A stretch of 64,000 bases of DNA from an uncultured Chloroflexia bacterium (GCA_963797095.1 CAWCNY010000003.1:1083722-1147721), one strand, 5' to 3'; positions 4,478 through 48,574 are shown, counted from the first letter of the stretch. A program made the numbers and translations. Notes: a model not told the origin generated them from the sequence alone.

Positions 4478-4579
4478 TTAGAAGCGTTCCGCCCTGATCA
4501 ACACGTAAGCCAGGTAGATCAGGAGCGCTAGCGCGATCAGACCCCATAGGACGTAGTCCCAACTCCCCAGGATGTCCAT
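4478..4579 (-). CDS. kdpF: K+-transporting ATPase subunit F (33 aa)
   Basis: Manual translation MDILGSWDYVLWGLIALALLIYLAYVLIRAERF matches the KdpF YL..VL...ERF pattern; directly upstream of kdpA. Confidence 0.9.
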   Translation of the reverse strand: MDILGSWDYVLWGLIALALLIYLAYVLIRAERF

Positions 4580-4583
4580 ATTC

Positions 4584-8539: not shown

Positions 8540-10984
8540 CTATTTACCGATTACAAAGTAGTAAAAGAGAAAGATAATCAGCAGCAACAGAAGTAGGGAG
8601 CCCCAGGGAAGGTCGGCTAGACGCCAACGACGCACCTGCTCTGCGCCTGCGCTACGGCGCTTGCCAAGTAGCTGAGGCACATCTGATACGACCGTATTCG
8701 GTCGGAACAGGAGGGCTGCTTTCAATCGAAAAGCGTTCTGGTTGTGCAAAAGATACTCCCACGGCTTGGAAGGTAAGGCCTCCGGCAGCACAACAGTTAT
8801 AGTGTCGTCCGTGTGCTGCTGGTCGAGGGCGTCAATGTAGGACAAGAGAGGCCCTATTAGAGAGCGGAACGGCGATTCGATTATCACCAGCTGGATGTCT
8901 GTATCCGGTAGGAGTTTGCGCCACTCTCTATTGAACTGCTCGGCTTCTTCCGGATCTTCCCCTTCCACGATGTGTACGGCGGTCACAGTAGCCGACAGGG
9001 AGCGCGCGTAGTCGAGGGCGGTCAGAGTAACGGGGTTCAAGCGTGCCACCGGCACGATGAATGTGTGTTTGAACCCAAAGCCGACGCTAGTACGCGATGT
9101 TGCCTGCGCTTGCGCCAGCGCTTGCTCCTGTTCCTCCCTTTCAACCCTCATGTAGTGTCGATGGATCGCCAGGAACAGAAAGATCAGGATAGGTATGAGC
9201 ACCAAGACGATCCAGGCGCCGTACGCGAACTTGGTCACAGCAGAGATAACGAGCACCAGCCCCGTGGTGAGCGCGCCAAGTCCATTGACTACCAGGTTAC
9301 GCTGCCATCCTGGCGTCCTGGTGCGCCACCAGCGCACGACCATACCGCTCTGAGATAAAGTGAAAGAGTTGAATACTCCTACCGTATAGAGTGGGATGAG
9401 GGCTGTGGTGTCTCCATCGAAGGCGATAACAAGCACACAGGCCAGGATCGCGAGTGTGATGATACCCCACGAGAAGGCCAGCTTATCGCCTCGAAAGGCA
9501 TATTGACGTGGCATGAATCGATCGCGGGCCAGAAAGTATGACAGGCGTGGGAAGTCCGCAAAGGCTGTGTTGGCCGCCAGCACGAGTATGAGCGCTGTGG
9601 CTATCTGGACATAGAACCATAGCGGGTTGGCGCCCCCCACCTCAGGAAAGATAGTACGCGCCAACTGTGAAAGCACCGTTTCCTGGTCGCTGGGCCGAAC
9701 ATGTAGCTGCGTAGCCAGGAAGGTGATGCCCGAGAACATACTAATCGAAGTTAGCGCCATTATGCCGAGTGTGGCGCGGGCGTTCTGCGCCTCCGGGGGT
9801 TTGAAAGCAGGCACGCCATCTGAAATAGCTTCGACACCCGTTAGCGCTGTACAGCCCTGGGTAAAGGCCCGCAGCAGGAGGAAAAGTGAGATGCTCTCAG
9901 CACTGTAAGGAAGGATCTCTGCCGGTGGAGTGTACACAGGTTGACCACCTACGCCCAGGTAGAGACGCAGCAAGCCATAACCTATCATCCCGACAATGCC
10001 CAGAATAAAGAGGTAAGTAGGCAACGCGAAAATATTGCCCGACTCCCGCACCCCTCGTAAGTTGATGATCGTGATTAGCACCACCACGAACACGCAGATT
10101 TCCACTCTGATTGGGCGAACTTCAGGAAAGAGGGAGTAGATGGCGGCAATTCCAGCCGACACGCTCACCGCGACGGTCATCGTGTAGTCGATAAGGATGG
10201 AGGCAGCAGCAGTAAGCCCAGGCAGCGTGCCCAGGTTATCCTTGGTCACTATGTACGACCCCCCACCCCTTGGATAAGCGGCAATCGTCTGGCGATAGGA
10301 AGTCGCTACAATAGCAAGCAGAATTACGATGGCTAACCCTATTGGGAGGGTAAAACCGGCAACCGCCGCAGTTCCTGCCAACAAGAGCACGCGGAGGATT
10401 TCCTCGGTTGCGTAGGCCACAGAAGACAGCGGATCGGACGAGAGTACAGCCAGGGCCTTGGCCTTCGTCAATCGTTCGTGAATGGAGTGCTCGCTGCTGA
10501 TTGCTTCTCCAATCAGCAGGCGTCTTACATTATAGAAGAAGCGCCCCCACCGACTTCTTGGCTGATTAGCGGCCAGGGAAGCGGTGAGCACCCCTGCGCC
10601 TTTCCGCCTGAACGGCCCTGCTGTGCGGGTCTGACGTATATAGCGGTCGCCTGGATGCGTGCCTCTCACGACTTCATTCTGTCGGAGATCGGCCCTGATC
10701 TTGTGGTCGCCATCTGCAGATGGAACTGGCCTTGATACGCGTTCCTGTGTACCTTCTGAGGCTTTATTTGCAGCCATATTTCCAGGCGTTTCACCTGGAG
10801 CGGGCCCCGCTGGTGTCGTCCCCGTCTGGCCAATTATGCGTCTAGCATGCTGGCGCTCAGGTTGCGATGCACCCTGCCCCTGCCCCTCATGGTTCCGGGC
10901 AGGTGGTAGGGTTCCTGAGTTTTCCTCGGAGCTGACATGCTCGGTATTGCCCTGGTCGTTATCATCTGCGTGGTCCTTATCCAT
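8540..10984 (-). CDS. kimA: APC-family permease, KimA/YdaO-like K+ transporter with a long hydrophilic N-terminus
   Basis: SSDPLSSVAYATEE, YPRGGGSY, ALTGVEAISDG, LIPLYTVGVF, C-terminal SPFRSL and LLHNQ. Confidence 0.82.
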   Translation of the reverse strand: MDKDHADDNDQGNTEHVSSEENSGTLPPARNHEGQGQGASQPERQHARRIIGQTGTTPAGPAPGETPGNMAANKASEGTQERVSRPVPSADGDHKIRADLRQNEVVRGTHPGDRYIRQTRTAGPFRRKGAGVLTASLAANQPRSRWGRFFYNVRRLLIGEAISSEHSIHERLTKAKALAVLSSDPLSSVAYATEEILRVLLLAGTAAVAGFTLPIGLAIVILLAIVATSYRQTIAAYPRGGGSYIVTKDNLGTLPGLTAAASILIDYTMTVAVSVSAGIAAIYSLFPEVRPIRVEICVFVVVLITIINLRGVRESGNIFALPTYLFILGIVGMIGYGLLRLYLGVGGQPVYTPPAEILPYSAESISLFLLLRAFTQGCTALTGVEAISDGVPAFKPPEAQNARATLGIMALTSISMFSGITFLATQLHVRPSDQETVLSQLARTIFPEVGGANPLWFYVQIATALILVLAANTAFADFPRLSYFLARDRFMPRQYAFRGDKLAFSWGIITLAILACVLVIAFDGDTTALIPLYTVGVFNSFTLSQSGMVVRWWRTRTPGWQRNLVVNGLGALTTGLVLVISAVTKFAYGAWIVLVLIPILIFLFLAIHRHYMRVEREEQEQALAQAQATSRTSVGFGFKHTFIVPVARLNPVTLTALDYARSLSATVTAVHIVEGEDPEEAEQFNREWRKLLPDTDIQLVIIESPFRSLIGPLLSYIDALDQQHTDDTITVVLPEALPSKPWEYLLHNQNAFRLKAALLFRPNTVVSDVPQLLGKRRSAGAEQVRRWRLADLPWGSLLLLLLIIFLFYYFVIGK

Positions 10985-38453: not shown

Positions 38454-38680
38454 CTACCTATCAACGCCCCGTGACAGCATGGTCAGTAGTAAGTCCACAA
38501 GCCCTTGCAAGTTGTCGAACCGCTGAACCTCTCCATCGGTCACCCGTTGCACCTTGCCTTGCCACTTTGCTTTGGCATTACGGTCGCTGTCCTCGTTATC
38601 GTCCGCGCGATCGTCCGCGCCTTTGTGCTCGTTCTCATCGTCTGCCGTCACTGACCACACCCGCACCAGGAAGAGGTTAG
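38454..38680 (-). pseudogene. Truncated small protein, paralogue of 53182..53445
   Basis: LFLVRVW...WQGKVQRVTDGE...F..L..L versus LFMVRVW...WRGKAQRVVSGE. Confidence 0.6.
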
Positions 38681-39090
38681 TGTCGCAGTGCGCCATGCAG
38701 GCGGCGAAGATGGCTCTCCAGTTGGCAGCTTCGGGTGATGCGCAGGTGGAGATATTGTCGGTCATTCCGGTCCCTCAATATGCAGCCAGTGTGGGTGGTG
38801 TAGACATGGACTTCGAGCGTGGGCGCTCGTACTTCATGGCCCGCCAGCACGAGCTAATCCGGGAGGCTACGGCGAAGCGCATCCAGTTGTATAGCAGGAT
38901 CGTGGTGGGCAACGTGACTCGCACAATCGTGCAGTGTGCACGGACTAGTGGCGCAGACCTGATCGTGCTTGGCTACAAAGGCTCTTCAACGCTTTGGGAG
39001 GAGAGCGGCGATACACCGCCCGGCAACCTGGGCAGCATCGCCGATCAAGTTACAAAGTACGCGCACTGTTCAGTGCTGGTGGTTCGCTGA
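38681..39090 (+). pseudogene. Universal stress protein (Usp) lacking its N-terminal strand
   Basis: ADLIVLGYKG...LGSIADQVTKYAHCSVLVVR; no ILVxxDG start. Confidence 0.75.
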
Positions 39091-39116: not shown

Positions 39117-40370
39117 TCATGCAACTGCTGCATCCGACCTGCTCTGTCTTCCTCTGACAGCAAGGAACAGTGGAAGAGCAGCAAACTCCGCGAGCAAGCA
39201 GAAGGCTATCAGCAAAGGTATAGACACAGCATACAGAACACCGATCGCCACGCTTCCCAAAAACCAGAATATGCCATAGCCTGCGGTGAAGAGGCCGTAG
39301 GCCGAGGCGCGACGATTGGCCGGCACCATCAGCGCCACCGCCGCCGGTATGATCAACTCGTGCACGCCCATTCCCAACCCCCACAGAGCGACACCAACAA
39401 GCGCCACCCAAAAATCGCCAAGGAAGACCAGCGGCGCGAATAGAGCCGAGAGGACGGTCAACGGTATCAGGATGCCTATGCCCATTCGATCAAAGAGACG
39501 CCCGAACGCGAGCGAGCCTATCCCGCTTATTCCCATAGCTACCGAATAGAAGACCGGTATCCACACGCCAGGCACTGCCCCGACCTGCTGGAGATGGTAC
39601 GCCATGAACGGGAAATCCGCGAAACCAACGGCCACCAGCACAGCCCCGGATAGGTAGAGCCAGAAGACGTGGGGCAACCCACTGGTCTGCACATTTGGTG
39701 GATTGGTCTCCATGTCCTGTGGGCGCGGGTAGAGCAGACGCGCCACGACCATGAGGCTGAGCGTGATGAGCGCAGGCACAAGGAGTATGGCAAAGGCAGT
39801 GCGGTAATCCCCTTGCCAGGCCAGCACCCCCGCGATGAGCAGAGGGCCAAAGAGTGCGCCAAACTGGTCGAGCGCCTCATGCACCCCAAATGCCCATCCA
39901 TATCCTCCCATCTCTTTGGCCGCGTGCGACAGCATCACGTCGCGCGGAGGGTTGCGGGTGGCTTTGCCCACGCGCTCCAGGATTATGAGAAGTGCCGCCA
40001 CCTGCCAGTTGCCCGCCAGGGCGAGCAGCGGCACCGAGAACATCTGGACAACGTAACCGACGATCGTTATAGGCCAGAACTGGCCCGTCTGATCGCTCAA
40101 GCGTCCCGACACGAGGCGCAGTCCATAGCCGAGCAGCTCTCCCAAGCCGGTGATGATGGCGATTGCTGTCGCACCCGCGCCAAGCAAGGCCAGGTAAGGA
40201 CCGACTATGCTCCGGGAGCCTTCGTAAGTGAAGTCGGCAAAGAAACTCATGACGCCGATCAACAGGACGAACCTGAATGCCTTCGATCGGGCCGGTGACG
40301 GGAGGGGCGGACGTGATGGCTTGGCTGAGGTCACCTCCGCCTCTGCTGTTTTTGGGTCAGATGCTTTCAT
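39117..40370 (-). CDS. MFS transporter
   Basis: GGAGGG RBS before ATG 40370; FADFTYEG.RS, GRLSDQTG, ERVGKATRNPPRD, GRLFDRMG; about 12 TM helices. Confidence 0.9.
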   Translation of the reverse strand: MKASDPKTAEAEVTSAKPSRPPLPSPARSKAFRFVLLIGVMSFFADFTYEGSRSIVGPYLALLGAGATAIAIITGLGELLGYGLRLVSGRLSDQTGQFWPITIVGYVVQMFSVPLLALAGNWQVAALLIILERVGKATRNPPRDVMLSHAAKEMGGYGWAFGVHEALDQFGALFGPLLIAGVLAWQGDYRTAFAILLVPALITLSLMVVARLLYPRPQDMETNPPNVQTSGLPHVFWLYLSGAVLVAVGFADFPFMAYHLQQVGAVPGVWIPVFYSVAMGISGIGSLAFGRLFDRMGIGILIPLTVLSALFAPLVFLGDFWVALVGVALWGLGMGVHELIIPAAVALMVPANRRASAYGLFTAGYGIFWFLGSVAIGVLYAVSIPLLIAFCLLAEFAALPLFLAVRGRQSRSDAAVA

Positions 40371-40413
40371 TAATCCCTCCCCCTTTGCTTCAGTTCCAAT
40401 CAAACGCTTCCGG

Positions 40414-42327
40414 CTATCTTTCGGCAGTAATGCGAGCCGTCCGCTCCCCCACCAATTGCACGAGGGCGCGCTTCCATGCATTCTCCTCCTGGCTGTTCGT
40501 GAGTTGCCTGCGAAGCGCGTCACGCTTGAGCGTGTAGGAGCGCATATCTTCCGAGATCTCCTCCAATATGCGTATCTGTTCTCGCAACAGAAACTCGCCT
40601 GCTTGTCCCTCCGGAGAGGCTGCAAGTATGGGAAGTGCCGCCGCAGCCATGAGGGCAGCTCGCAAATGAGGCAGGCATAGTCCTTCCGAGCGCGAATACG
40701 CCTCCCTGCCACTGGGTGTAGAGATCTGCGTAAGAACACGATCTATCTGCCCGGTTTCCGTCTCTCTCAGCACCCGGCAAGCCGCGCACGTCTCAATTCC
40801 AGGGAGCAGCGCATCAATGTGTGCGCCAATCCGCTCAGGAGCCTCACCGGCGATACCAGCGAGTCGCCTCAGTTCAGCAGCCGACGCCTCGATCAACGGC
40901 GCGTAGCCCTCGCTGATGCCCAGCGGCGAGGCCATCTGCTGGAACTGCCAGGTATGAACGGGGCAAAAGCCGCGCGAGGACATAGATGCGCGCTGTGCCA
41001 CATCGCTTGTTGAGAGGGTATATTGCCAGCGGGCAAAGAAGTCGAAGACGGCCTGTCCCTGCGCGAAGCAGATGGGGCACGTCCCGCCTCGAAGATTGCG
41101 GCTGCCTCGCCTCTGTTCGGATAAGCTGGCCTTGACCGTGGCCGCCACTGCTCGCTCGATGACTTCCCCGTTCGCCGATTTCGCCGATGTAGTGCTACCG
41201 GATTCACCAGGTTCACCGGCAATAACCGGAGTGAGTCCCGCATCGCTCAGGAGGGCTGTACGGAGCGAGGCCATCCTCTCCCGAAGACCATCCGCTGATA
41301 TTTCCTGCGTGACAAGGCTATCGCCGTTATCAACTTCCATTTCAGGAAGCAGATCGAGCGCCCTGTCCAGCACCGACACTAGGAAAGCCCGCCCTTGCTC
41401 GCGAGCAAGGAAGTCGGTTAGGGAAGCCTCCATCTCCGGAAGGCCACTCTGCTGAAGGCCTGCGCTGTCACCACTCAGTTTGGTCTGCAGCGCCTGCCGG
41501 GCGGAAACGGCAAAGAGGCGAACGTCTCCACTGCCAAGCGTCGCGTCTATGCCGGCTCGGATGTAGCCGAGCACTTCGGCGCGCTCCCACTCGTTGAGGA
41601 GATCTATCTTGTTGGCGACCACAAAAAGCTTGCGAGCCTGGCCAACGTGATCAAGGTGATCGCCTATGTCACGCAAAAACCTCTGCTCGTCTGAACTAAA
41701 GGGCCCGTCGACGCTGGTCACGAAAATCACCGCGTCCGCTTGCGGCAGAAAGGCGTAAGTGGTTGCCGTGTTTTCCTGCTGTATCGAGCCGACCCCTGGC
41801 GTGTCGATAAAATATAAGCCCCGGCGCAGGAAGCGCTCCGGCAGTTCCACCCGCGCTTCGACCAGTCCTTTTTCGTTGCCCGGGTTGCCTCGCTCCGTGA
41901 TATAGTCTGCCAGTTCACTCAGGGAGACCTCTTGCTCGATGGACCAGCCTTTGCGCCTGAGAAATGCCTGCTCTCGCGGCCAGTAGCTGATAGTAGTGAT
42001 GGCCGAGGTCAACGGGAGCAGACCTGTTGGCAACAGGTCGCGACCGATCACGGCATTCATCAGCGAGCTCTTGCCGCGCTTAAATTGCCCCACAACCGCC
42101 AGATTGAACCGGTCCGCAGCCAGCTTGACCAGGAGCGCCTGTGCCTGTTCCGCGGCAGCCGCTCTCGCTATACTGGCTTCGCCCGATGCGCCGGATGTGC
42201 CAGGCGCCTCTGCCGGTGCGCGACGCGACTCCAAAAGCATCTTCAGGTCACGCACGCAGGCTGTTACCTGTTGCTTTGCCAGTGTATAACCGCGCAGCTG
42301 TGTCGTTTCGCCCTCTGGTAAGGCCAC
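40414..42327 (-). CDS. Dynamin-like GTPase fused to a duplicated Cys/His module (DUF6062-like)
   Basis: G1 GQFKRGKSS, G2 PLTS, G3 DTPG, G4 NKID; CPIC..GFCPVH and CAAC..GLCLPH; AGGAGG RBS before GTG. Confidence 0.85.
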   Translation of the reverse strand: MALPEGETTQLRGYTLAKQQVTACVRDLKMLLESRRAPAEAPGTSGASGEASIARAAAAEQAQALLVKLAADRFNLAVVGQFKRGKSSLMNAVIGRDLLPTGLLPLTSAITTISYWPREQAFLRRKGWSIEQEVSLSELADYITERGNPGNEKGLVEARVELPERFLRRGLYFIDTPGVGSIQQENTATTYAFLPQADAVIFVTSVDGPFSSDEQRFLRDIGDHLDHVGQARKLFVVANKIDLLNEWERAEVLGYIRAGIDATLGSGDVRLFAVSARQALQTKLSGDSAGLQQSGLPEMEASLTDFLAREQGRAFLVSVLDRALDLLPEMEVDNGDSLVTQEISADGLRERMASLRTALLSDAGLTPVIAGEPGESGSTTSAKSANGEVIERAVAATVKASLSEQRRGSRNLRGGTCPICFAQGQAVFDFFARWQYTLSTSDVAQRASMSSRGFCPVHTWQFQQMASPLGISEGYAPLIEASAAELRRLAGIAGEAPERIGAHIDALLPGIETCAACRVLRETETGQIDRVLTQISTPSGREAYSRSEGLCLPHLRAALMAAAALPILAASPEGQAGEFLLREQIRILEEISEDMRSYTLKRDALRRQLTNSQEENAWKRALVQLVGERTARITAER

Positions 42328-42355
42328 CGGTCCTCCTGACTCTACCTTTAGCCTG

Positions 42356-44009
42356 CTACAATGCTATGCGTTGCAGTTCATCCGATTGGGAAGCGTGGAA
42401 ACCATTCTGATGAGGTTCTGAAGCCTCTGAAGGTTCGGGGAGTGCTGATCCATCGCTACCGAAGATCTTGAGGTAGACATCCTCTCCGAAGCTGGTTTGC
42501 AGGGGCCCGCCCTCCACCAGCTTGAAGGTGCGCGTATGAGCGGGGTGCCCTCCGGGCCGCGAACTATCGGCCTCCCTCTGGGCGCGAAGGAAGATGGCTT
42601 CCACTATGCCTGCGTCTGCATCTGCGCCCGCGGTCCCGGCGTAGAAGCTGTGGGCAAAGTCGTACAGGTGCGTGACGAAGAAGACCTTGACGCCCGCCTC
42701 CAGCAGGGCGCGCACGATCTGCCTGGCGATCTCCGAGCCCTCCCGGTCGTTGGTGGCGGCGAACGATTCGTTGAACAGCACGAGCGAGTTGGGTTTTATA
42801 TGGTCGGCCATCTCGCTCATCCTGCTGAGCTCCTCGTCAAACTTGCCGCTCTCCATCGCGGTATCCTCTTCTCGCTTGTAGTGAGTGAAAAGGCCGTCGC
42901 ACACGTTGGCAACGAACGAGCTGGCTGGCACAAACATGCCGCTCTGCATCATCAACTGCGAGAGGCCGATGCTGCGCAGGAAGGTCGACTTGCCCCCCTG
43001 GTTGGCCCCCGTCACTATCGCCAGTACTTTGTTGTCGGCGTTCACATCGTTACCTATCACCCTCTGCTCTAGACGCAGCGAGAGGCAGACATCGTACAGC
43101 CCCGTAAAAGAGTGCTTGCGCTCGCTCGCGGCCACGGGTACAGGGTAGCACACCGGCTCTCCTTTGCGGGCAAGCTGCTCGTACAGGTTGAGGCAGCCGA
43201 CGTAGAAGCCCAGCTCGGCCCGCAGCATATTGAAGAAGCTGAGGATATGGTCGTTGGACTGGGCCAGCGCGTTGGCCGCAAAGTTTTGGCCCCTGTTTTT
43301 CAACTCCGACAATGCCCGCGCTCCACTCTCGTCCCTCGGGGCGATGCAGAATTTGAACGAAGGAGGTTTCTTGGTAAGGAATTGGTCGGTGACCTGCTCT
43401 ATCCAGCTGCCCTGTTTGGGGGGCAGCTTGCGTAGCACGTAACCTGTGCCTTTATTGCCTTCTCCCAACCCGGCGCTGATCAGTATTCCCCGATGGAACT
43501 GAAGCTCTTTCAGGTGGCGCTGGATCTCTGCAAAATATTCGTCCCCCAACTCCCTCTGGAGCATGGCGAAGAGGTTGGTGAAGCCCTCCGATGCGAACAG
43601 GCCAGCGTATTCCTCAGCCATCCTTCTCAGTTTCTTGAACTGGCCCACAAACATCCCCATCACATCTATCGATCTGTTCAGCACCGAGTTCGGGGTATTC
43701 TCGCAAGATACCCCAGTAGTTTTTTCGCTCGCTGTCGATAGTCTGCACGGCGAGGTCGTACAGCGCCCTCACCACTGAGGGGTTTTTCAGGCAATCGGCC
43801 AGGATATACTGCCGGTAGAGGAGGGTATTAAGGTCGCTGGTGCTTGAGAGTAGTGCTTTCTTTGCCACATCAAAGAGGTATGTGTCCCCCTGAGACATGG
43901 CACCGAAGAGCGTGTCGAGCTCGAGGTCCTGCGTGAGGTCGGGCTCGTTCCAGGGCAGCTTCCGCTCAAGGTCGAAGTCTCGGTCTCTGTACATGAGGAA
44001 GGCCTTCAT
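42356..44009 (-). CDS. MutS-family ATPase (MutS4-like, copy B); +1 frameshift in G4 run at 43692-43695
   Basis: Start MKAFLMY (ATGA overlap with upstream stop); GANQGGKST, SGKFDEEL, LFNESFAATNDREG, FVTHL. Confidence 0.88.
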
Positions 44010-45577
44010 GGCGTCAAGCGCTCCTTCAGGCCGTTGTAGGTCAGCCGGTGTTTCTCGGCTATAGAGAGGGCGTAAGCGAGGCCGTCGGCGGGCTTGCGCA
44101 CGATCTTGAATGTTCGCATGAGCGGGGTGCCCTCCGGGCCGCGAACTCCTGGGTTGTCGGGCACCACCGTGCTGGCAACGCTCACCGTCTTCTCGCTCAG
44201 AGAGGACAGCTCGTCTATGAATGTCACGCACACGCAAAGGAGGTCCAGCCGAACGATCTTTTCCAGTATTTTCTTACTCAGGAAGATGGCGTCTTGGAGG
44301 GTCGTTGAGGTGAAGATCTCGTTCATAATGATGATGCTCCGGGGCGTGGCCTGGTCCAGGATTGCATGAATCCTGAAGAGGTCGTCCTCCAGCTTGCCTC
44401 TTAGGTTCTCTATGTTCTCTTCTTTCTCAAAGTGCGTGAAGAGCTTATCGAAGAGGAAGAGCCTGGCCCCTTTGCCGGGCACCTGGCAGCCGAGAGCGGC
44501 CAGGTAGTGTAGCTGCCCGAAGGTGCGTGCGAAGGTGGTCTTGCCGCCCTGGTTCGGGCCGGACACCACGAAGATGCGCTCTTTGCCTTTCAGGTAGAAG
44601 TCGTTACACACCACGGGCGTCTTGCCGCCCAAGAGCTTGTTAGCAAGAGCCAGGTCGAAGCCCTCATAGCCGCACACTTCCTTGTCTCTATCCGAGACCT
44701 CTGGGTAGCAGAAGCTCAAACCCGACCGCTTGAAAGACACGACGAAATCCAGATATGCAAGGTAAAACTGTATCTGCCTGTCGAACAGGGCAATCGTGGG
44801 ATCCAGGTAGTTGACGTGCTTGGTGCAATAGGCTTGGAGGTTCCGGAATACGTCGGGGTAGAGGCGGGCCACGAAGTCGACGACCACCTCTTCGACGTAG
44901 GTCATCTCCGGCCACGAGCGGAACTTGGCAAGATACTCCTTCACGGCGCCCTGTTTGAACTTCTCGAAGGTCGCGCCCACTTCAGCGCTGTAGTCTCCTT
45001 CGCCGTCGTATTTGCGAACCGTGAAGCACTCCTCCTTTACGTGAACGGTATATTTCACGGAAGCAAGGTCGATATTACGCTGAGCTGTGTCCGCTACGAG
45101 TGAGGTGAAAGCGTCGGATGCGGCGTAGGCTGCCACATAATCGCGGAAAGCCAGAAGCCCGCGTGAGGCAGGGTTTGCGAGGGCCAGGTCGCTCGCCAGT
45201 GTCTGGACCGCCTCGCAATAGACCCCTACCGCGTCGAGGAACCACTTTTGCTTCTGGTAGACATTGGAGAGCTTGCCTGCCTGGGCGAGATATTCACGCA
45301 TCGTGCGCAGCCTTTGCCCAAAGGATCTTATGCACTCATAGAGAGTTTTGTCCTCGAGGTCTTGCATTACCTCGTGGCGATAATTGATCGTGCTTACATC
45401 CTTCAGAGGCGTATAGAAGAACGGTTTCAGATTGTATGCGTCCCTACCTGCAGTGATGGTCTCTACAACCTGGTCCAGGTTGAGGTCGACAAAGAACTGG
45501 GGCGCTGTGGGTTGTTCTTCGAGATCGTCTTCGGCTCTCTCAAAGAGGATGTTGTGAAAGGCGTTGTGAAAGTTCAT
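44006..45577 (-). CDS. MutS-family ATPase (MutS4-like, copy A), no mismatch-recognition domain
   Basis: FFVDLNLDQ, GPNQGGKTT, THFEKEE, GKLEDDL, IMNEIFTSTT. Confidence 0.9.
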   Translation of the reverse strand: MNFHNAFHNILFERAEDDLEEQPTAPQFFVDLNLDQVVETITAGRDAYNLKPFFYTPLKDVSTINYRHEVMQDLEDKTLYECIRSFGQRLRTMREYLAQAGKLSNVYQKQKWFLDAVGVYCEAVQTLASDLALANPASRGLLAFRDYVAAYAASDAFTSLVADTAQRNIDLASVKYTVHVKEECFTVRKYDGEGDYSAEVGATFEKFKQGAVKEYLAKFRSWPEMTYVEEVVVDFVARLYPDVFRNLQAYCTKHVNYLDPTIALFDRQIQFYLAYLDFVVSFKRSGLSFCYPEVSDRDKEVCGYEGFDLALANKLLGGKTPVVCNDFYLKGKERIFVVSGPNQGGKTTFARTFGQLHYLAALGCQVPGKGARLFLFDKLFTHFEKEENIENLRGKLEDDLFRIHAILDQATPRSIIIMNEIFTSTTLQDAIFLSKKILEKIVRLDLLCVCVTFIDELSSLSEKTVSVASTVVPDNPGVRGPEGTPLMRTFKIVRKPADGLAYALSIAEKHRLTYNGLKERLTP

Positions 45578-45596
45578 GTCTTTTAACCCCTTGGGG

Positions 45597-45642
45597 CAAA
45601 CAAAAAGCCCCTACTCGTGCCGGTAAGGCAAAAGTAGAAGCT
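45597..45642 (-). terminator. Intrinsic terminator forming the riboswitch expression platform
   Basis: Sense strand GCTTCTACT-TTTGCC/TTACC/GGCACG-AGTAGGGGC-TTTTTGTTT; overlaps the aptamer 3' strand. Confidence 0.8.
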
Positions 45643-45694
45643 ATCAGGCTGGAGAGCCACCGCTCATGTGCGGCTTGCGGCGAGCTTCATCGCC
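45634..45694 (-). ncRNA. Fluoride riboswitch (crcB motif)
   Basis: Sense strand GGCGATGAAGCTCGCC...CTGATAGCTTCTAC; P1 GGCGA/TCGCC; pseudoknot GAAGC/GCTTC; matches the fluoride aptamer consensus. Confidence 0.9.
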
Positions 45695-45729
45695 GTGGGG
45701 ATGCTAGCCCCAAATCAACGTTCAAGCTT

Positions 45730-45758
45730 ATTATATCTCAGGGAGACTGTGGCCGCAA
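45730..45758 (-). promoter_or_regulatory. Sigma70-type promoter of the riboswitch operon
   Basis: TTGCGG-N17-TATAAT on the minus strand. Confidence 0.7.
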
Positions 45759-45952
45759 CCTAATTCAAAAGCTCCAGTGAATGCGGTACCGGTAAGTGCG
45801 ATATAGAGAGAGCGAAGTTGCTGTACGGGCAAACTAACGTGATAAGTTGAGACTTAGGTCTATACCAACAAGGTGTAATACCTCCTCAACTGAGGACCTC
45901 TTTGGGCCAGATGGTCTCAAAGCAATCTAATATCAGCTGATAAGATTTACTG

Positions 45953-47649
45953 CTAGAGCATCGGTCAAGTAATCAGGCAGCCGCAGCCAAGAACTGCGGG
46001 GAACGAGCCAATACATGCAGATTGTTCACCACAGCACAGCGCCGCAGATCAAACAGGTTCTTGCGTACGCCAATGTAGCGGGCGTCCTCGCCCTGCCAGT
46101 GCCCGACGTGCGCCAAGCTGTGCTCTACCCCCACCCGTTCCCGCAGCTTGGCTCGTCCGCTGGCTGTCTGCTGCCGCTCCCGCAACTCCGCCAGCAACGC
46201 CTCATCCGGGTGGATACTCACGCTGCGCCCTGCTTTACTACTCGTGCAGCGCTCCCGCAATCCACAGGCGTCGCACTGCTCGACCGGAAAATGCACCAGA
46301 GCTCCCAGCTCGAAGTTCAACTCGATGCCGTTGGGGCAACGGATCGTCTGCTTCTCCCAATCGAGGGTGAACGCCGTCTTGTCGAAGTAAACCCCGTTGC
46401 GCACCGGCCAAGTCTTACAATAGACTTGCTGGCCACCCTGGCGCTGGCGCACCCAACTGCTACTCAGGTAGGCACGATCGATGTGCAACTCGCGCCAACT
46501 GATGCCCAGGTGCAACAGGTCCGCGGCCATGCTCTCAGTCACGCTAGCCTCCGGCGCATTGGCTGGCGTGATGCCGACTGCCACCAGCAACTCACTATCC
46601 AAGTCACGCAGCACATGGCGCTTGTAACCATCGTTCAAGCGGCTCTTGCTCTTGCGACCATGACGCATCTGGGCGTCCTCGATGCTGATGCGTCGCTCTG
46701 GCGCGACCCCTTGCCGCAAGATCGCCCCACCCGCAGCATCCGTGGTCACGTCTTGCTCTTGCTCTTGTACTTGCGCGGCAGCAGCCAGGCTAGCCTTGAC
46801 CTGGGGCTGCTCAACCGCATCTTGTTCGCGCAGATAAGCTTCACCGGCAGCAAGTGCCGCCAGCACCAACTGCAAGGCTTGTTGTTGCTGCGCCGGGTCG
46901 TCCCAATCCAGATCGAGTGCCGCCTTGAGGCTGGAGCCCGAGACCAACTCCGCCCCAGCCGCACTTGCCACCTCCGCCAGCTCCCGCCCCTGCTGCGCGG
47001 CCAACACGCCCAAAGCCTTACGCAGGGCGTGACCCAACAGATTGAAGGTATCTTCCACCCGTGCGGCACCCCACAGGGGACTGCTGTCAAGGGCCACCCG
47101 CAACTGGCGCGAACCGAAGTCGCCACTTTGTTCAGCCAACTCAACGGTACGCTCAATCAAGCGACGGTCGAGGTTGTGTTTGATGAGAGCGGCACGAAAG
47201 GCGACCAGGGTACCCTTGCTGAAGGGGGCGGTGTCGCTGTCGAGACAATCGAGAACCAGTTGCCAGCGGCGGTCCATCAGGCTAGCCTCGATGACCTCGT
47301 CGTCGGAAACCCCGCTGTAGGCTTGCAGCAGCGTAGCCAAGGCGAGTTGAGCGGGCGGAATAGGAGGTTGACCACGAGAGCTATCCTCATAGAGGGTAGC
47401 CAGCTCAGCTTGGAAATCGATGGAAAAGAGGCGGTGGCGGTGCAGGCGCAAGAAGACAAAGAGCTTGGCGCGACGAATACGCTTGACGACCTGTTGTTCA
47501 AGGGTAGAGAGTTCAATAGGAGGCTCCCAGACAGCGGGGCGCATGGCATTATTCCTTTCTGTTGGCCTATAGTTGGTTTGCCAACTCTAGCAAACCATGC
47601 CCTGTCCGCCTTGTCAAGCCTTCGCCCGATTACTTGACCGATGTTCTAG
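45953..47649 (-). mobile_element. Apparently intact IS1182-family element
   Basis: 22-bp inverted ends CTAGAGCATCGGTCAAGTAATC / GATTACTTGACCGATGTTCTAG (one mismatch), CTAG at both ends. Confidence 0.88.
45973..47544 (-). CDS. IS1182-family transposase
   Basis: GQPPIPP..LQAYSGVSD, ALDSSP, GYKRH, IDRAY, CxxC..C, RVGVEHSLA. Confidence 0.9.
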   Translation of the reverse strand: MRPAVWEPPIELSTLEQQVVKRIRRAKLFVFLRLHRHRLFSIDFQAELATLYEDSSRGQPPIPPAQLALATLLQAYSGVSDDEVIEASLMDRRWQLVLDCLDSDTAPFSKGTLVAFRAALIKHNLDRRLIERTVELAEQSGDFGSRQLRVALDSSPLWGAARVEDTFNLLGHALRKALGVLAAQQGRELAEVASAAGAELVSGSSLKAALDLDWDDPAQQQQALQLVLAALAAGEAYLREQDAVEQPQVKASLAAAAQVQEQEQDVTTDAAGGAILRQGVAPERRISIEDAQMRHGRKSKSRLNDGYKRHVLRDLDSELLVAVGITPANAPEASVTESMAADLLHLGISWRELHIDRAYLSSSWVRQRQGGQQVYCKTWPVRNGVYFDKTAFTLDWEKQTIRCPNGIELNFELGALVHFPVEQCDACGLRERCTSSKAGRSVSIHPDEALLAELRERQQTASGRAKLRERVGVEHSLAHVGHWQGEDARYIGVRKNLFDLRRCAVVNNLHVLARSPQFLAAAA

Positions 47650-47862
47650 GCCCAGTTGAGGAGCATCTGGAGCATAGATCCCCTATGTGTGCGTCGGTAT
47701 GTGTGCGTCGGTCTCCGGCGTAGGCGCTCCGAAACGTTGTATAGAACAGATCTCCCAGAAGTCCTTGAGTCCAAAAATATGAAGGTAGTTTGCCTTCACT
47801 GGCAGCTTCGCTCTCTATACCCCTAAGCGCCGATTTTTCCGAATGCGGTTCACATCTGAACC

Positions 47863-48574
47863 TGCGGATTGTACGAAAGTTTGGCGCATTCGGAACGGAA
47901 GTTTGGCGGCTACGGCTACACCTTGCTGGATCAACTCCTTTTGCCATTTTGGGATGGCCCAAGACCCAACTCGACATGTTCATCGAGGACGTATCGATTG
48001 GGACGCCTCTGCGCTTGCTTCACTAACTCCTGTGCTGGTTTGCACTCGATCCATCCGCACCCCCGATGACGGAACAGAAAGAAGTCTGCTGTATGCATCG
48101 GTCGTTGCAGACGACCATGCGTGTCATAGTATTCTAGCGGGATGGGTGGTGGTTGATCCCACACCTCCAGGACATCGTCGTTATGCTCGGCGGCAAGCAA
48201 GAAGGGAAATTCCACCTTCGCACTTTCTGCCTTAATGATGCATTGCATCTTCTTGGAGGGATACCAGACAGGCGTATTGTCTTGGCGTGCTCTCGGTGTG
48301 CGGCTTGGCGGTGAAAAACGGATGTGGGCAAGCAGTTCCTGAGCCTCTTGCGAAAGGTTCAACCGACGAACATATGCTGGAAATGCGATTCCATCGAGCG
48401 GCCTTGCCATAGTCTGCCCCACCTCTGCCTCAAGACCAAGCGACATGTTGCTTCTTCTTGAAGCACGGCCAGGCATAACACAGTCTCCAGCCTGAGACCG
48501 AACATTTCCCCTCGCGTAGCACTTGTGACACCAAACTTACGCACCGAATGCGCCAAACTTTCGTACAATCCGCA
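47863..48574 (-). mobile_element. Internally deleted TG...CA transposon with about 46-bp inverted ends and a TnsA-like fragment
   Basis: TGCGGATTGTACGAAAGTTTGGCGCATTCGG at both ends in inverted orientation, with internal AAGTTTGG repeats. Confidence 0.8.
47931..48476 (-). pseudogene. N-terminal TnsA-endonuclease-like transposase fragment
   Basis: YPSKKM..IKAES..VE, WDQP, HTADFF, WIECKP (PD-(D/E)xK type). Confidence 0.75.

What the first reader, a model, noticed from the sequence alone, without database searches (positions are those of the whole stretch)
39117..45758. Fluoride-riboswitch operon encoding a MutS-like ATPase pair, a dynamin-like GTPase and an MFS transporter
Seen: promoter TTGCGG-N17-TATAAT, a canonical fluoride aptamer overlapping an intrinsic terminator (ON-switch layout), then four co-oriented genes with an ATGA overlap and gaps of 28 and 43 bp. 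No Fluc/CrcB or CLC-F exporter is in the operon. Known: fluoride riboswitches usually control exporters or fluoride-sensitive enzymes, and MutS-like and MFS genes have been noted downstream of them without a mechanism. Paired MutS4-type genes lack the mismatch-binding domain and have no assigned function. Inference: a fluoride-inducible module in which a MutS-fold heterodimer works with a membrane-remodelling GTPase and an MFS protein that may be a non-canonical fluoride exporter.
Basis: partly seen in the sequence, partly recalled or inferred. Interest (0 to 1): 0.88.

Follow-up and report, generated by a model that had tools for sequence, protein, structure and literature searches.

The report
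Fluoride riboswitch operon with MutS4 genes
A fluoride-sensing RNA switch appears to turn on a cluster of two MutS-like ATPase genes (one with a broken reading frame), a dynamin-like GTPase gene and a transporter gene; these gene families sit beside such switches in many bacteria, but their role in fluoride tolerance is unknown.

Summary
The layout is real, with two corrections. (1) The aptamer matches Rfam's fluoride model at 27.4 bits, below the 34-bit cut-off (E 4e-5 for the genome). It carries an extra hairpin. P1, the pseudoknot and an overlapping terminator are intact, and the same variant precedes DUF190-crcB in this genome. (2) The second MutS gene is broken by a one-base frameshift, which may be an assembly error or real decay. 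The MutS genes fit the MutS4A/MutS4B family of Lin et al. 2007: adjacent genes, ATGA overlap, no mismatch-binding domain. In 80 homologous loci from many phyla the pair is always adjacent. 68 of 80 loci hold fluoride riboswitches, and 37 of 80 have one directly upstream of MutS4A. Dynamin-like GTPases, DUF6062 proteins and this MFS subfamily are also frequent riboswitch targets there. The mutS link to this riboswitch was published in 2010, so this is a new member of a known kind. Apparently unreported: both MutS4 subunits carry Asn in place of the Walker B Asp, and DUF6062 (two invariant Cys3His sites, no solved relative) is fused to the GTPase in many proteins and to MutS4A in one. Nothing supports membrane remodelling. 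An exporter role for the MFS is untested, and the genome has riboswitch-controlled crcB.

The parts
45730..45758 (-). Promoter-like site: TTGCGG (45758-45753), 17 nt, TATAAT (45735-45730)
   Evidence: Read. Not listed by the consensus scan, because the -35 hexamer matches only 3 of 6.
45628..45703 (-). Fluoride riboswitch aptamer, variant with an extra hairpin between P1 and P3. P1 is GGCG/CGCC. The pseudoknot is GAAGCU (P1 loop) with AGCUUC (45642-45637).
   Evidence: RF01734 at 27.4 bits (cut-off 34), E 1.4e-5 and 4.0e-5 genome-wide. Own model R1 gives 44 bits, by construction. Fold. The same two-hairpin layout passes Rfam's cut-off upstream of MutS4A in L020, L022 and L016.
45597..45642 (-). 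Intrinsic terminator. Its 5' arm AGCUUCUAC is the aptamer's pseudoknot strand. Its 3' arm GUAGGGGCU is followed by UUUUUGUUUG. This is an ON-switch layout.
   Evidence: MFE fold -61.9 kcal/mol, z -3.5, 0 of 200 shuffles as stable. Terminator-like site listed at 45628-45609.
44006..45577 (-). MutS4A-type gene (523 aa): MutS core/lever, clamp-like hairpin and ATPase domain. No mismatch-binding or connector domain. Walker A is GPNQGGKTT; Walker B is IIIMNE, with Asn in place of Asp.
   Evidence: Pfam MutS_V 1.1e-18. AlphaFold2 model pLDDT 78.5. Foldseek whole-length matches to MutS/MSH/MutS2 at about E 1e-15. Residue alignment to E. coli MutS and human MSH3. Conservation.
43614..44009 (-). MutS4B-type gene, 5' part. 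ATG 44009 overlaps the MutS4A stop (ATGA). The homologous reading ends near 43690; after that the frame runs out of register to the stop at 43614.
   Evidence: Three-frame translation. tblastn to 80 loci at 45-66% identity.
43683..43697 (-). Frame break in MutS4B: one extra base within TACCCCGAACTCGGTG, just after the conserved Tyr-Pro.
   Evidence: Compared with the intact G004, L020, L017 and L006. The exact base cannot be told. G020 has a one-base loss at the same place.
42356..43684 (-). MutS4B-type gene, 3' part (442 codons from GTG 43684): clamp-like region and ATPase. Walker A is GANQGGKST; Walker B is LVLFNE.
   Evidence: Pfam MutS_V 6.8e-22. Conservation.
40414..42327 (-). Dynamin-like GTPase (G1 GQFKRGKS, G3 DTPG, G4 NKID) fused to DUF6062 (about residues 416-629) with two CxxC...CxxH sites.
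   Evidence: Pfam Dynamin_N 4.5e-26 and DUF6062 1.3e-6 (28.5 bits, cut-off 27). Motifs. Invariant Cys/His. Model pLDDT 88.7.
39117..40370 (-). MFS transporter (417 aa from ATG 40370)
   Evidence: Pfam MFS_1 9.5e-25. Hydrophobic segments throughout. Homologues named only 'MFS transporter'.

Best explanation
This is a transcriptional ON-type fluoride riboswitch operon, made of three gene modules that each belong to the fluoride riboswitch regulon in many phyla.

Without fluoride the leader forms a terminator. Its 5' arm is the aptamer's 3' pseudoknot strand. When the Mg-fluoride complex is bound, that strand is held in the pseudoknot and RNA polymerase reads through into MutS4A, MutS4B, the dynamin-like GTPase-DUF6062 fusion and the MFS transporter. 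The layout is shown in the sequence; ligand binding and read-through are inferred.

MutS4A and MutS4B form a heterodimeric MutS-type clamp ATPase without a mismatch-recognition domain. Both subunits have Asn instead of the Mg-coordinating Walker B Asp. I infer (about 0.4) that the clamp acts on a nucleic acid or nucleoprotein substrate disturbed by fluoride, such as branched DNA or stalled ribosomes, and not on mismatches.

The GTPase-DUF6062 protein is a soluble metal-binding NTPase of unknown target. The MFS is an H+-coupled transporter of unknown substrate. Fluoride export is possible at about 0.15.

The operon was probably acquired horizontally: it lies beside an IS element and is patchy among relatives. 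In this assembly MutS4B carries a one-base frameshift. The odds are about even between a real inactivation and an assembly error.
For: Riboswitch.
- RF01734 match at E 4.0e-5 genome-wide.
- P1, a 6-bp pseudoknot and a terminator sharing the pseudoknot strand.
- Only two other such elements are in the genome. One leads DUF190-crcB, the canonical target. The other leads a DUF6062 gene. Both have the same inserted-linker variant.
- Homologous leaders with two hairpins pass Rfam's cut-off: L020 40.2, L022 40.3 and L016 44.6 bits.
- On 150 riboswitch hits from the homologous loci, the pseudoknot (not part of my model) is paired in 99.9% of cells, with double changes at 4 of 6 pairs. P1 is paired in 98% of cells (P3, poorly aligned, only 58%). 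0 of 500 shuffles reach the observed values.

Regulon membership.
- 80 loci were kept of 213 relatives of MutS4A.
- MutS4A and MutS4B are adjacent in 80 of 80. A riboswitch is present in 68 of 80, and within 500 nt upstream of MutS4A in 37 of 80.
- The first ORF after a riboswitch is MutS4A for 34 of 147. Of the other 113: Dynamin_N 13, enolase 11, Na/H exchanger 9, CrcB 9, MFS_1 8.
- L071 has riboswitch-MFS-MutS4A-MutS4B-GTPase/DUF6062 in one row.

Heterodimer.
- ATGA or GTGA junction in 75 of 80.
- About 20 proteins of 1008-1112 aa; the three A-B-length ones I scanned each carry two MutS_V stretches.
- Complex prediction 0.63 against a best control of 0.00. That mark was reached by 58 of 80 solved complexes and 2 of 110 mismatched pairs. 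Runs agree in at least 96% of contacts, and the partner's pLDDT is at least 71. My own alignments were used. MutS dimers are solved, so the pass may reflect likeness.

Walker B Asn. It aligns with the Asp of E. coli MutS and MSH3. It is at least 95% conserved in 81 MutS4A and 75 MutS4B sequences. In a second set NE occurs in 74 of 80 MutS4B, with SE in 2 and no regex match in 4, and DE is never seen.

Horizontal origin. A DDE transposase IS lies at 45952-47650, with 3 copies in the genome. The operon DNA is found in 1 of 18 same-genus genomes.
Against: - The aptamer is below Rfam's curated cut-off (27.4 against 34 bits).
- No expression or ligand data exist.
- MutS4B is out of frame, so the MutS4 function may be lost here. 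In the one same-genus genome that has the genes (G004), MutS4A is 5'-truncated and no riboswitch was found. That fits decay in this lineage.
- The 80 loci were chosen through MutS4A, so the counts overstate how often the other families accompany riboswitches in general.
- 43 of 80 MutS4A genes have no riboswitch within 500 nt, and 12 of 80 loci have none at all.
- Nothing here shows what the MutS4 clamp binds. Both subunits are acidic, pI about 5.9.
- The one published experiment links MutS4 to homologous recombination, not to fluoride (PMC5742357, passages read).
Confidence: 0.75

Rival explanations
1. A decaying, horizontally acquired remnant. The riboswitch may still work, but MutS4B is a true pseudogene. 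The MutS4 function is lost in this organism, and only the GTPase-DUF6062 and MFS genes, if any, still matter.
For: - One-base frameshift, against one frame in 82 of 83 and 76 of 77 homologue pairs.
- G004 of the same genus has a 5'-truncated MutS4A and no riboswitch.
- The operon is patchy among relatives and lies next to an IS element.
- The assembly looks accurate elsewhere. The three IS copies differ by 1 mismatch and 1 gap opening in about 1700 nt. KdpA and other long genes match their profiles end to end.
- Frame breaks in MutS4B also occur in G020, L017, L082, L029, L011 and L042.
Against: - There is no second disabling change in 442 downstream codons, which stay 54-69% identical to homologues.
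- The break lies in a short C/G run.
- G020, also an 8-contig assembly, has an opposite one-base change at the same run. That also fits systematic assembly error.
- No read data cover the site.
Confidence: 0.45
2. The MFS is a non-canonical fluoride exporter, and the MutS pair and the GTPase assist it at the membrane.
For: - Close homologues of this MFS (at least 40% identity) occur in 16 of 80 loci.
- Four have a riboswitch 69-253 nt upstream.
- Three more sit in riboswitch-led operons just before MutS4A.
- A non-canonical transporter (BenE-I) contributing to fluoride tolerance has been reported in P. putida (PMC13104614, abstract read).
Against: - The genome has riboswitch-led DUF190-crcB.
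- CrcB is found in 10 of 16 other genomes with this MFS; their completeness is unknown.
- The invariant TM1 residues are acidic (D46, E50). To my recollection that is typical of H+-coupled cation or drug antiporters and not of anion carriers.
- The GTPase has no conserved membrane segment.
- MutS4 and the GTPase usually have separate riboswitches.
Confidence: 0.15
3. MutS4A/B is a DNA recombination or repair clamp, analogous to MSH4-MSH5. It is induced because fluoride stress damages DNA or stalls replication.
For: - Whole-length structural likeness to MutS/MSH without domains I and II.
- Expression of a mycobacterial MutS4 operon was reported to raise homologous recombination in M. smegmatis (PMC5742357, passages).
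- Weinberg et al. proposed a DNA-damage link for the crcB motif (PMC2864571, passages).
Against: - No DNA-binding test exists.
- The proteins are acidic.
- The neighbours in fluoride islands are metabolic and ion-homeostasis genes, not repair genes.
- The Walker B Asn and the changed signature region set the ATPase cycle apart from repair MutS proteins.
Confidence: 0.25
4. The riboswitch-like element is a chance or dead match, and the operon is expressed independently of fluoride.
For: Score below Rfam's cut-off. In the 14 control genomes the same loose search 'rings' in 13 but passes the cut-off in only 4.
Against: - E 4e-5 for the genome.
- Intact P1, pseudoknot and terminator overlap.
- It lies in front of a gene family that has a canonical riboswitch directly upstream in 37 of 80 loci.
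- The same variant lies upstream of crcB in this genome.
Confidence: 0.08

Closest known systems
crcB-motif (fluoride) riboswitches upstream of mutS-like genes (Weinberg et al. 2010, PMC2864571, passages read; Baker et al. 2012 recalled, not held)
   Same: The same RNA family placed in the 5' UTR of a mutS-like gene, with a terminator overlapping the motif and so an ON logic. The 2010 paper states both points.
   Different: Here the aptamer has an inserted hairpin and scores below Rfam's cut-off. The transcription unit also carries a dynamin-like GTPase-DUF6062 fusion and an MFS gene. I found no open paper that names those two as riboswitch targets. The papers' supplementary gene lists could not be seen.
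MutS4A/MutS4B subfamily (Lin, Nei & Ma 2007, PMC2190696, passages read)
   Same: Two adjacent paralogues; the stop of A overlaps the start of B; only the ATPase ('MutSac') region is recognisable by sequence; patchy distribution attributed to horizontal transfer. Thermoanaerobacter, a genus listed in that paper, carries a 62% identical homologue (L016).
   Different: That paper gives no function and no fluoride link. Here MutS4B is frameshifted.
MutS2 / RqcU (collided-ribosome sensor) and MSH4-MSH5 (function of both recalled)
   Same: MutS-fold proteins that lack the mismatch-binding domain and use the lever/clamp plus ATPase. MutS2 on a disome (7qv3) is among the Foldseek matches at E 4e-14.
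   Different: No Smr or KOW domains. An obligate heterodimer of two short subunits. Walker B Asn-Glu instead of Asp-Glu. No evidence here for ribosome or junction binding.
Bacterial dynamin-like proteins (BDLP 2j68, IniA 6j72, DynA family)
   Same: GTPase domain with G1, G3 and G4 motifs. phmmer E 1.3e-17 to BDLP and 9.2e-16 to IniA.
   Different: The match covers the first 318 residues only. The C-terminal third is DUF6062, an all-helical domain with two Cys3His sites. No paddle or conserved hydrophobic segment was found, so membrane remodelling is not indicated.
Fluc/CrcB and CLC-F fluoride exporters
   Same: Controlled by the same class of riboswitch. The MFS is a membrane transporter in the same regulon.
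   Different: The MFS belongs to neither family. CrcB is encoded elsewhere in this genome under its own riboswitch.

Membership tests
Fluoride riboswitch (Rfam RF01734, crcB motif) | Covariance-model score at or above Rfam's gathering cut-off (34 bits) | tested here: not met
   27.4 bits, E 1.4e-5. 0 hits at gathering threshold. This is a curated cut-off, not a structural feature. The shortfall comes from a 25-nt stretch where the model has 13.
Fluoride riboswitch (Rfam RF01734, crcB motif) | P1 helix enclosing the conserved GAUG loop | tested here: met
   GGCG AUGAAGCU CGCC. P1 is 98% paired with double changes at 4 of 4 pairs across 150 related hits.
Fluoride riboswitch (Rfam RF01734, crcB motif) | Pseudoknot between the P1 loop and the 3' strand next to the conserved CUGAU...CUAC | tested here: met
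   GAAGCU pairs with AGCUUC, 6 pairs. The pseudoknot is 99.9% paired with double changes at 4 of 6 pairs on A2, and it was not part of the model.
Fluoride riboswitch (Rfam RF01734, crcB motif) | Expression platform competing with the aptamer (terminator overlap) | tested here: met
Fluoride riboswitch (Rfam RF01734, crcB motif) | Selective binding of fluoride with Mg2+ | not testable with these tools
   Needs in-line probing, ITC or a transcription assay.
MutS4A/MutS4B (Lin et al. 2007) | Two adjacent paralogous genes, stop of A overlapping start of B | tested here: met
   ATGA at 44009-44006. The junction is ATGA in 71 and GTGA in 4 of 80 homologues.
MutS4A/MutS4B (Lin et al. 2007) | ATPase (MutSac / domain V) present, MutS-I and MutS-II absent | tested here: met
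   Pfam finds only MutS_V. The 523-aa model aligns to the core-clamp-ATPase parts of MutS/MSH.
MutS4A/MutS4B (Lin et al. 2007) | Placement inside the MutS4A and MutS4B clades of the published tree | not tested
   No reference sequences from that paper were at hand. Indirect: a 62% identical homologue in Thermoanaerobacter (L016), a genus the paper lists as a MutS4 carrier.
MutS4A/MutS4B (Lin et al. 2007) | Both genes intact | tested here: not met
   MutS4B is frameshifted near 43683-43697. Whether this is real or an assembly error is open.
Canonical MutS ATPase site | Walker B Asp-Glu | tested here: not met
   Asn-Glu in both subunits. It aligns to the Asp-Glu of E. coli MutS and MSH3 and is conserved.
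Dynamin-like membrane-remodelling GTPase | Dynamin-type GTPase domain | tested here: met
   Dynamin_N 4.5e-26. G1, G3 and G4 motifs.
Dynamin-like membrane-remodelling GTPase | Stalk or paddle, or another membrane-binding element | tested here: inconclusive
   There is one hydrophobic window (550-568), in an insert that most homologues lack. The C-terminal domain is DUF6062. The full-length protein was not modelled.
DUF6062 (PF19538) | Pfam score above cut-off and the family's conserved Cys/His pattern | tested here: met
   28.5 bits against a cut-off of 27. C18, C21, C56, H59, C115, C118, C152 and H155 are invariant in 24 sequences. The atlas's nearest clusters are all DUF6062.
Known fluoride exporters (Fluc/CrcB, CLC-F) | Sequence membership of the operon's transporter | tested here: not met
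   Only MFS_1 matches. No NCBIfam family matches.

The most novel reading that the evidence does not exclude
MutS4A/B and the GTPase-DUF6062 protein form a dedicated NTPase arm of the fluoride response.

The proposal is that the MutS4 heterodimer has a nucleotide site rebuilt to work when Mg-fluoride species poison ordinary P-loop and ABC NTPases. The rebuilt features are Walker B Asn and a changed signature region. Its job would be to clear nucleoprotein complexes, such as stalled ribosomes or replication and recombination intermediates, trapped by NDP-metal-fluoride.

DUF6062 would be the shared metal-binding adaptor. It is fused to the GTPase in hundreds of proteins and to MutS4A in at least one.
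Probability: 0.12. Interest if true: 0.85.

Novelty: new member of a known kind. Interest (0 to 1): 0.5.

Why it matters
Fluoride riboswitches define the best map we have of how microbes cope with fluoride. Yet a large, highly conserved part of that regulon, the MutS4A/B pair, has had no function since 2007-2010. The family has 1,132 cluster representatives at E ≤ 1e-30, and the 80 homologues examined are 58-67% identical to this one across phyla.

This window adds little on its own, because the pair is broken here. The survey it prompted gives concrete handles:
- a family-wide Asn at the Mg-coordinating Walker B position;
- a predicted clamp-to-clamp heterodimer;
- dynamin-like GTPases and DUF6062 as frequent direct riboswitch targets;
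- fusions that tie DUF6062 to both NTPases.

These can be tested in culturable carriers. They bear on engineering fluoride-tolerant strains for organofluorine degradation.

Tried and rejected
- **Rfam at gathering threshold on the window:** 0 hits. The match appears only with E-value reporting.
- **Reads for the frameshift:** The look-up of sequencing runs listed 2 soil-metagenome runs holding 0.09 and 0.08 of the words, and no RNA holder. Read laying gave only short contig pieces and none over 43557-43778, so it says nothing about the frameshift or expression.
- **Metagenome search for a near-identical strain:** the best match was 66% identical. It served only as a second sample for frame and motif counts.
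- **Programmed frameshifting:** considered and set aside. The window needs +1 and G020 needs -1 at the same spot. There is no slippery heptamer or in-frame stop there.
- **DUF6062 fold:** Foldseek against the PDB had a best E of 0.5. VIA-align wide had a best Z of 5.3 over 100 residues, within the noise for helical models. No fold assignment was made, and this does not show a new fold.
- **MFS:** no PDB sequence match at E ≤ 0.01 and no NCBIfam family. Homologues carry only generic names.
- **KamC (lysine aminomutase reactivase):** 78 bits against a cut-off of 300, over the ATPase core only. Not a member.
- **Literature searches:** 'fluoride riboswitch'+MutS gave 1 irrelevant paper. DUF6062 gave 0. 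'fluoride riboswitch'+dynamin gave 0. fluoride+MutS+riboswitch gave 8, none relevant by title and abstract start. A five-term search gave 5, none relevant by title and abstract start. crcB+mutS gave only Weinberg 2010. The 2024 Stockbridge-Wackett review does not contain MutS, mismatch, dynamin or major facilitator.
- **Papers not seen:** Baker et al. 2012 is not held; what I say of it is recalled. Supplementary files were not opened. The gene lists of Weinberg 2010 and Baker 2012 may already name dynamin-like, DUF6062 or MFS genes.
- **G026** is an unpublished genome. It gave only a 115-nt match at E 4e-4, which enters the tally.

Full report
**What is in the sequence**

All features are on the minus strand.

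- TTGCGG (45758-45753), 17 nt and TATAAT (45735-45730) precede a leader of about 150 nt. The promoter scan did not list this site, because the -35 hexamer matches only 3 of 6.
- Four gene units follow:
  - a MutS_V protein of 523 aa (45577-44006);
  - a second MutS_V gene whose ATG (44009) overlaps the first gene's TGA;
  - after 28 nt, a 637-aa Dynamin_N + DUF6062 protein (42327-40414);
  - after 43 nt, an MFS_1 transporter (40370-39117).
- Upstream lies a DDE-transposase IS element (45952-47650). It has three copies in the genome, 99.6% identical.
- Downstream is a convergent universal-stress-protein gene (38554-39090).
- The rest of the window is ordinary chromosome: Kdp ATPase, glycoside hydrolases, GGDEF.

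**The riboswitch**

- At Rfam's gathering threshold the window gives no hit.
- With E-value reporting, RF01734 matches 45703-45628 at 27.4 bits against a cut-off of 34. E is 1.4e-5 locally and 4.0e-5 over the 6.0-Mb genome.
- The shortfall comes from extra sequence between P1 and the 3' strand.
- The fold shows P1 (GGCG/CGCC), two small hairpins, and then a terminator. The terminator's 5' arm AGCUUCUAC is the strand that pairs with GAAGCU in the P1 loop to form the pseudoknot. Energy is -61.9 kcal/mol, z -3.5. A terminator-like site is also listed by the scan. This is the classic ON layout.
- The genome has only two other such elements: 20.9 and 20.1 bits with Rfam, and 3 matches in all with my model.
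  - One leads DUF190-crcB, the canonical target.
  - The other leads a 168-aa ORF plus a stand-alone DUF6062 gene, next to a divergent enolase gene.
- All three share the conserved cores and an inserted linker. The lineage thus uses a variant that Rfam under-scores.

**Homologous loci**

- A search of one genome per species with MutS-A found 213 relatives, and 80 loci were kept. They are 58-67% identical. They come from Chloroflexota, Bacillota (Moorella, Pelotomaculum, Desulfosporosinus, Thermoanaerobacter), Desulfobacterota, Verrucomicrobiota, Spirochaetota, NC10 and others.
- I built a covariance model from 13 clear aptamers upstream of these genes plus the three own-genome copies. It found 168 hits at E ≤ 0.1 in 1.18 Mb. 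The best 150 were used for the counts.
- Rfam itself, run on 8 of the loci (129 kb), gave 20 RF01734 hits above its cut-off. These include the ones directly upstream of MutS-A in L020, L022, L016, L029 and L059.
- The leaders of L020, L022, L032, L016, L014 and L018 are nearly identical across two phyla. They have the same two-hairpin architecture as the window.
- On the 150 hits the pseudoknot, which was not in my model, is paired in 99.9% of cells, with double changes at 4 of 6 pairs. P1 is paired in 98%, with double changes at 4 of 4. P3, poorly aligned, is paired in only 58%. 0 of 500 shuffles reach the observed values, and slid controls fall to 44-59% paired.

**Gene neighbourhoods**

| Feature | Loci of 80 |
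|---|---|
| MutS-A immediately followed by MutS-B | 80 |
| At least one riboswitch | 68 |
| Riboswitch within 500 nt upstream of MutS-A, same strand | 37 |
| Enolase | 31 |
| MFS (any) | 27 |
| Dynamin-like GTPase | 26 |
| CrcB | 21 |
| DUF190 | 20 |
| DUF6062 of the fused type | 16 |
| DUF6062 of the stand-alone type | 6 |

- The first ORF after a riboswitch could be called for 147 of 150 hits. It is MutS-A for 34. Of the other 113: Dynamin_N 13, enolase 11, Na/H exchanger 9, CrcB 9, MFS_1 8.
- Close homologues of the window's MFS (at least 40% identity) occur in 16 loci. Four have a riboswitch 69-253 nt upstream. Three sit in riboswitch-led operons just before MutS-A.
- L071 has riboswitch-MFS-MutS-A-MutS-B-GTPase/DUF6062 in one row.
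- G020, of the same order, has MutS-A, MutS-B and GTPase-DUF6062 in a row, and a riboswitch-led MFS on the other strand.
- The window's operon therefore joins three modules that are each riboswitch targets elsewhere.
- The loci were chosen through MutS-A, so these frequencies are not general ones.

**The MutS pair**

- Lin, Nei and Ma (2007; passages read) defined MutS4A/MutS4B. The genes are adjacent, the stop of A overlaps the start of B, only the ATPase domain is recognisable, the distribution is patchy, the function is unstudied, and Thermoanaerobacter is among the carriers.
- The window fits this description. The junction is ATGA in 71 and GTGA in 4 of 80 homologues.
- A 2017 paper reports that a mycobacterial MutS4 operon raised homologous recombination in M. 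smegmatis. It makes no fluoride link (passages read).
- Weinberg et al. 2010 state that the crcB motif lies in the 5' UTRs of mutS genes (passages read).
- The association is thus in print, while the function is not.

New here:
- The MutS-A model (pLDDT 78.5) matches MutS, MSH and MutS2 over its whole length at about E 1e-15. It therefore has core, clamp and ATPase parts but no domains I and II.
- Both subunits keep Walker A but have Asn-Glu where MutS and MSH3 have Asp-Glu. The following GRGTS is replaced by FTSTT in the MutS-A alignment; MutS-B reads FAATN at that place.
- The Asn is at least 95% conserved in 81 A and 75 B sequences. In a second, independent set NE occurs in 74 of 80 B sequences, with SE in 2 and no regex match in 4. 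For A, NE occurs in 41 of 80; the regex found no match in the rest, and DE is never seen.
- About 20 proteins of 1008-1112 aa turned up as longer homologues. The three A-B-length ones I scanned each have two MutS_V stretches.
- A complex prediction of MutS-A with the 442-aa part of MutS-B scored 0.63 against a best control of 0.00. That mark was reached by 58 of 80 solved complexes and 2 of 110 mismatched pairs. Contacts agree in at least 96% of runs, and the partner's pLDDT is at least 71. My own alignments were used.
- The confident interface is a beta-strand pairing of the clamp-like hairpins, A 171-239 with B 45-150. Solved MutS dimers exist, so this may reflect likeness.
- The family is large: 1,132 representatives at E ≤ 1e-30.

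**The frameshift**

- MutS-B's first 100 or so codons are in one frame and the rest in another.
- Against intact relatives, the window has one extra base within TACCCCGAACTCGGTG, just after a conserved Tyr-Pro.
- Homologues keep one frame in 82 of 83 pairs and in 76 of 77 pairs of the metagenome set.
- G020 has a one-base loss at the same spot. L017 and L082 have breaks near one other site. L029, L011, L042 and L148 have other lesions.
- G004, the only same-genus genome of 18 with the genes, has a 5'-truncated MutS-A and no riboswitch.
- The assembly otherwise looks clean, and no reads cover the site.
- I put real inactivation and assembly error at about even odds.

**The GTPase-DUF6062 protein and the MFS**

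- The GTPase domain is dynamin-like: BDLP E 1.3e-17 over residues 38-318, and G1, G3 and G4 motifs.
- The C-terminal 240 residues are DUF6062. In 24 sequences C18, C21, C56, H59, C115, C118, C152 and H155 are invariant. These form two CxxC...CxxH sites in an internal repeat.
- The model is all-helical with pLDDT 88.7. No convincing solved relative was found.
- Dynamin_N + DUF6062 fusions fill the best 120 of 220 longer homologues.
- One 1100-aa protein joins DUF6062 repeats to MutS4A.
- There is no conserved membrane segment.
- The MFS has thousands of homologues, all named generically. It has no solved or curated relative. Its invariant TM1 residues are D46 and E50.
- CrcB is present in this genome and in 10 of 16 other genomes with this MFS.

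**Verdict**

- This is a genuine but sub-threshold fluoride riboswitch variant.
- It controls a compact version of a widespread, partly published, functionally unexplained regulon.
- The MutS4B gene is out of frame here.
- It is ordinary as an instance, and useful as a pointer to testable features of MutS4 and DUF6062.

Noticed in passing
L002 = G000:C2:609439-612518 (riboswitch at locus 1501-1580, minus strand): A third fluoride-riboswitch variant in the same genome. It leads a 168-aa ORF with no Pfam match and then a stand-alone DUF6062 gene (290 aa, E 6.5e-19). An enolase gene lies divergently on the other strand. So two of the genome's three riboswitch units carry DUF6062.
   Followed up: partly
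L003 = G000:C3:215744-218821: The canonical unit, riboswitch - DUF190 - crcB, scores only 20.1 bits with Rfam. Rfam's cut-off would therefore miss every fluoride riboswitch in this genome.
   Followed up: partly
window 45952-47650: IS element with a DDE transposase (DDE_Tnp_1_6, DUF772), about 195 nt upstream of the operon's -35 hexamer. Two more copies lie on contigs C5 and C2, 99.6% identical, with 1 mismatch and 1 gap opening.
   Followed up: partly
L059, L032, L071, L014 and other loci: 'Fluoride islands': up to seven riboswitch hits within 14-17 kb, each leading a different unit (MutS4, enolase, Na/H exchanger, CrcB, dynamin-like GTPase, MFS, P-type ATPase, MoxR-type AAA).
   Followed up: partly
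L020:7775-8003, L022, L032, L016, L014, L018 (alignment A3): The riboswitch-plus-terminator leaders of MutS4A are nearly identical between Chloroflexota and Bacillota. This points to transfer of the switch and the genes as one unit.
   Followed up: no
P0128 (1100 aa, one metagenome contig of 10.9 kb): A natural open reading frame that joins two DUF6062-like repeats to a full MutS4A. It is a single instance, so a gene-calling or assembly artefact cannot be excluded.
   Followed up: partly
L088 (G020) about 2535-2560; L017 about 4560-4580; L082 about 10360-10385: Frame breaks in MutS4B recur at two spots in different Chloroflexota genomes. One is the same spot as in the window, with the opposite sign. 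The other is shared by L017 and L082. Both lie in or near short C/G runs.
   Followed up: partly
L026:2200-5868: Four tandem stand-alone DUF6062 paralogues sit between DUF190-crcB and enolase in a Bacteroidota genome.
   Followed up: no
window 38554-39090 (+): A universal stress protein gene converges on the end of the MFS gene, with 26 nt between the stops. I recall Usp genes among fluoride-riboswitch targets, but this one is on the other strand.
   Followed up: no
window 47931-48476 (-): ORF with a weak TnsA-like endonuclease N-terminal match (E 7e-4, below Pfam's cut-off), just beyond the IS element.
   Followed up: no
window 64000: The window ends exactly at the end of contig C3 (1,147,721 bases) of the 8-contig assembly.
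   Followed up: no
L025, L044, L056, L057, L059 (tblastn hits 'small_L002'): The 168-aa ORF that precedes DUF6062 in L002 has homologues in 6 of 80 MutS4 loci, some directly after a riboswitch. It has no Pfam family.
   Followed up: no
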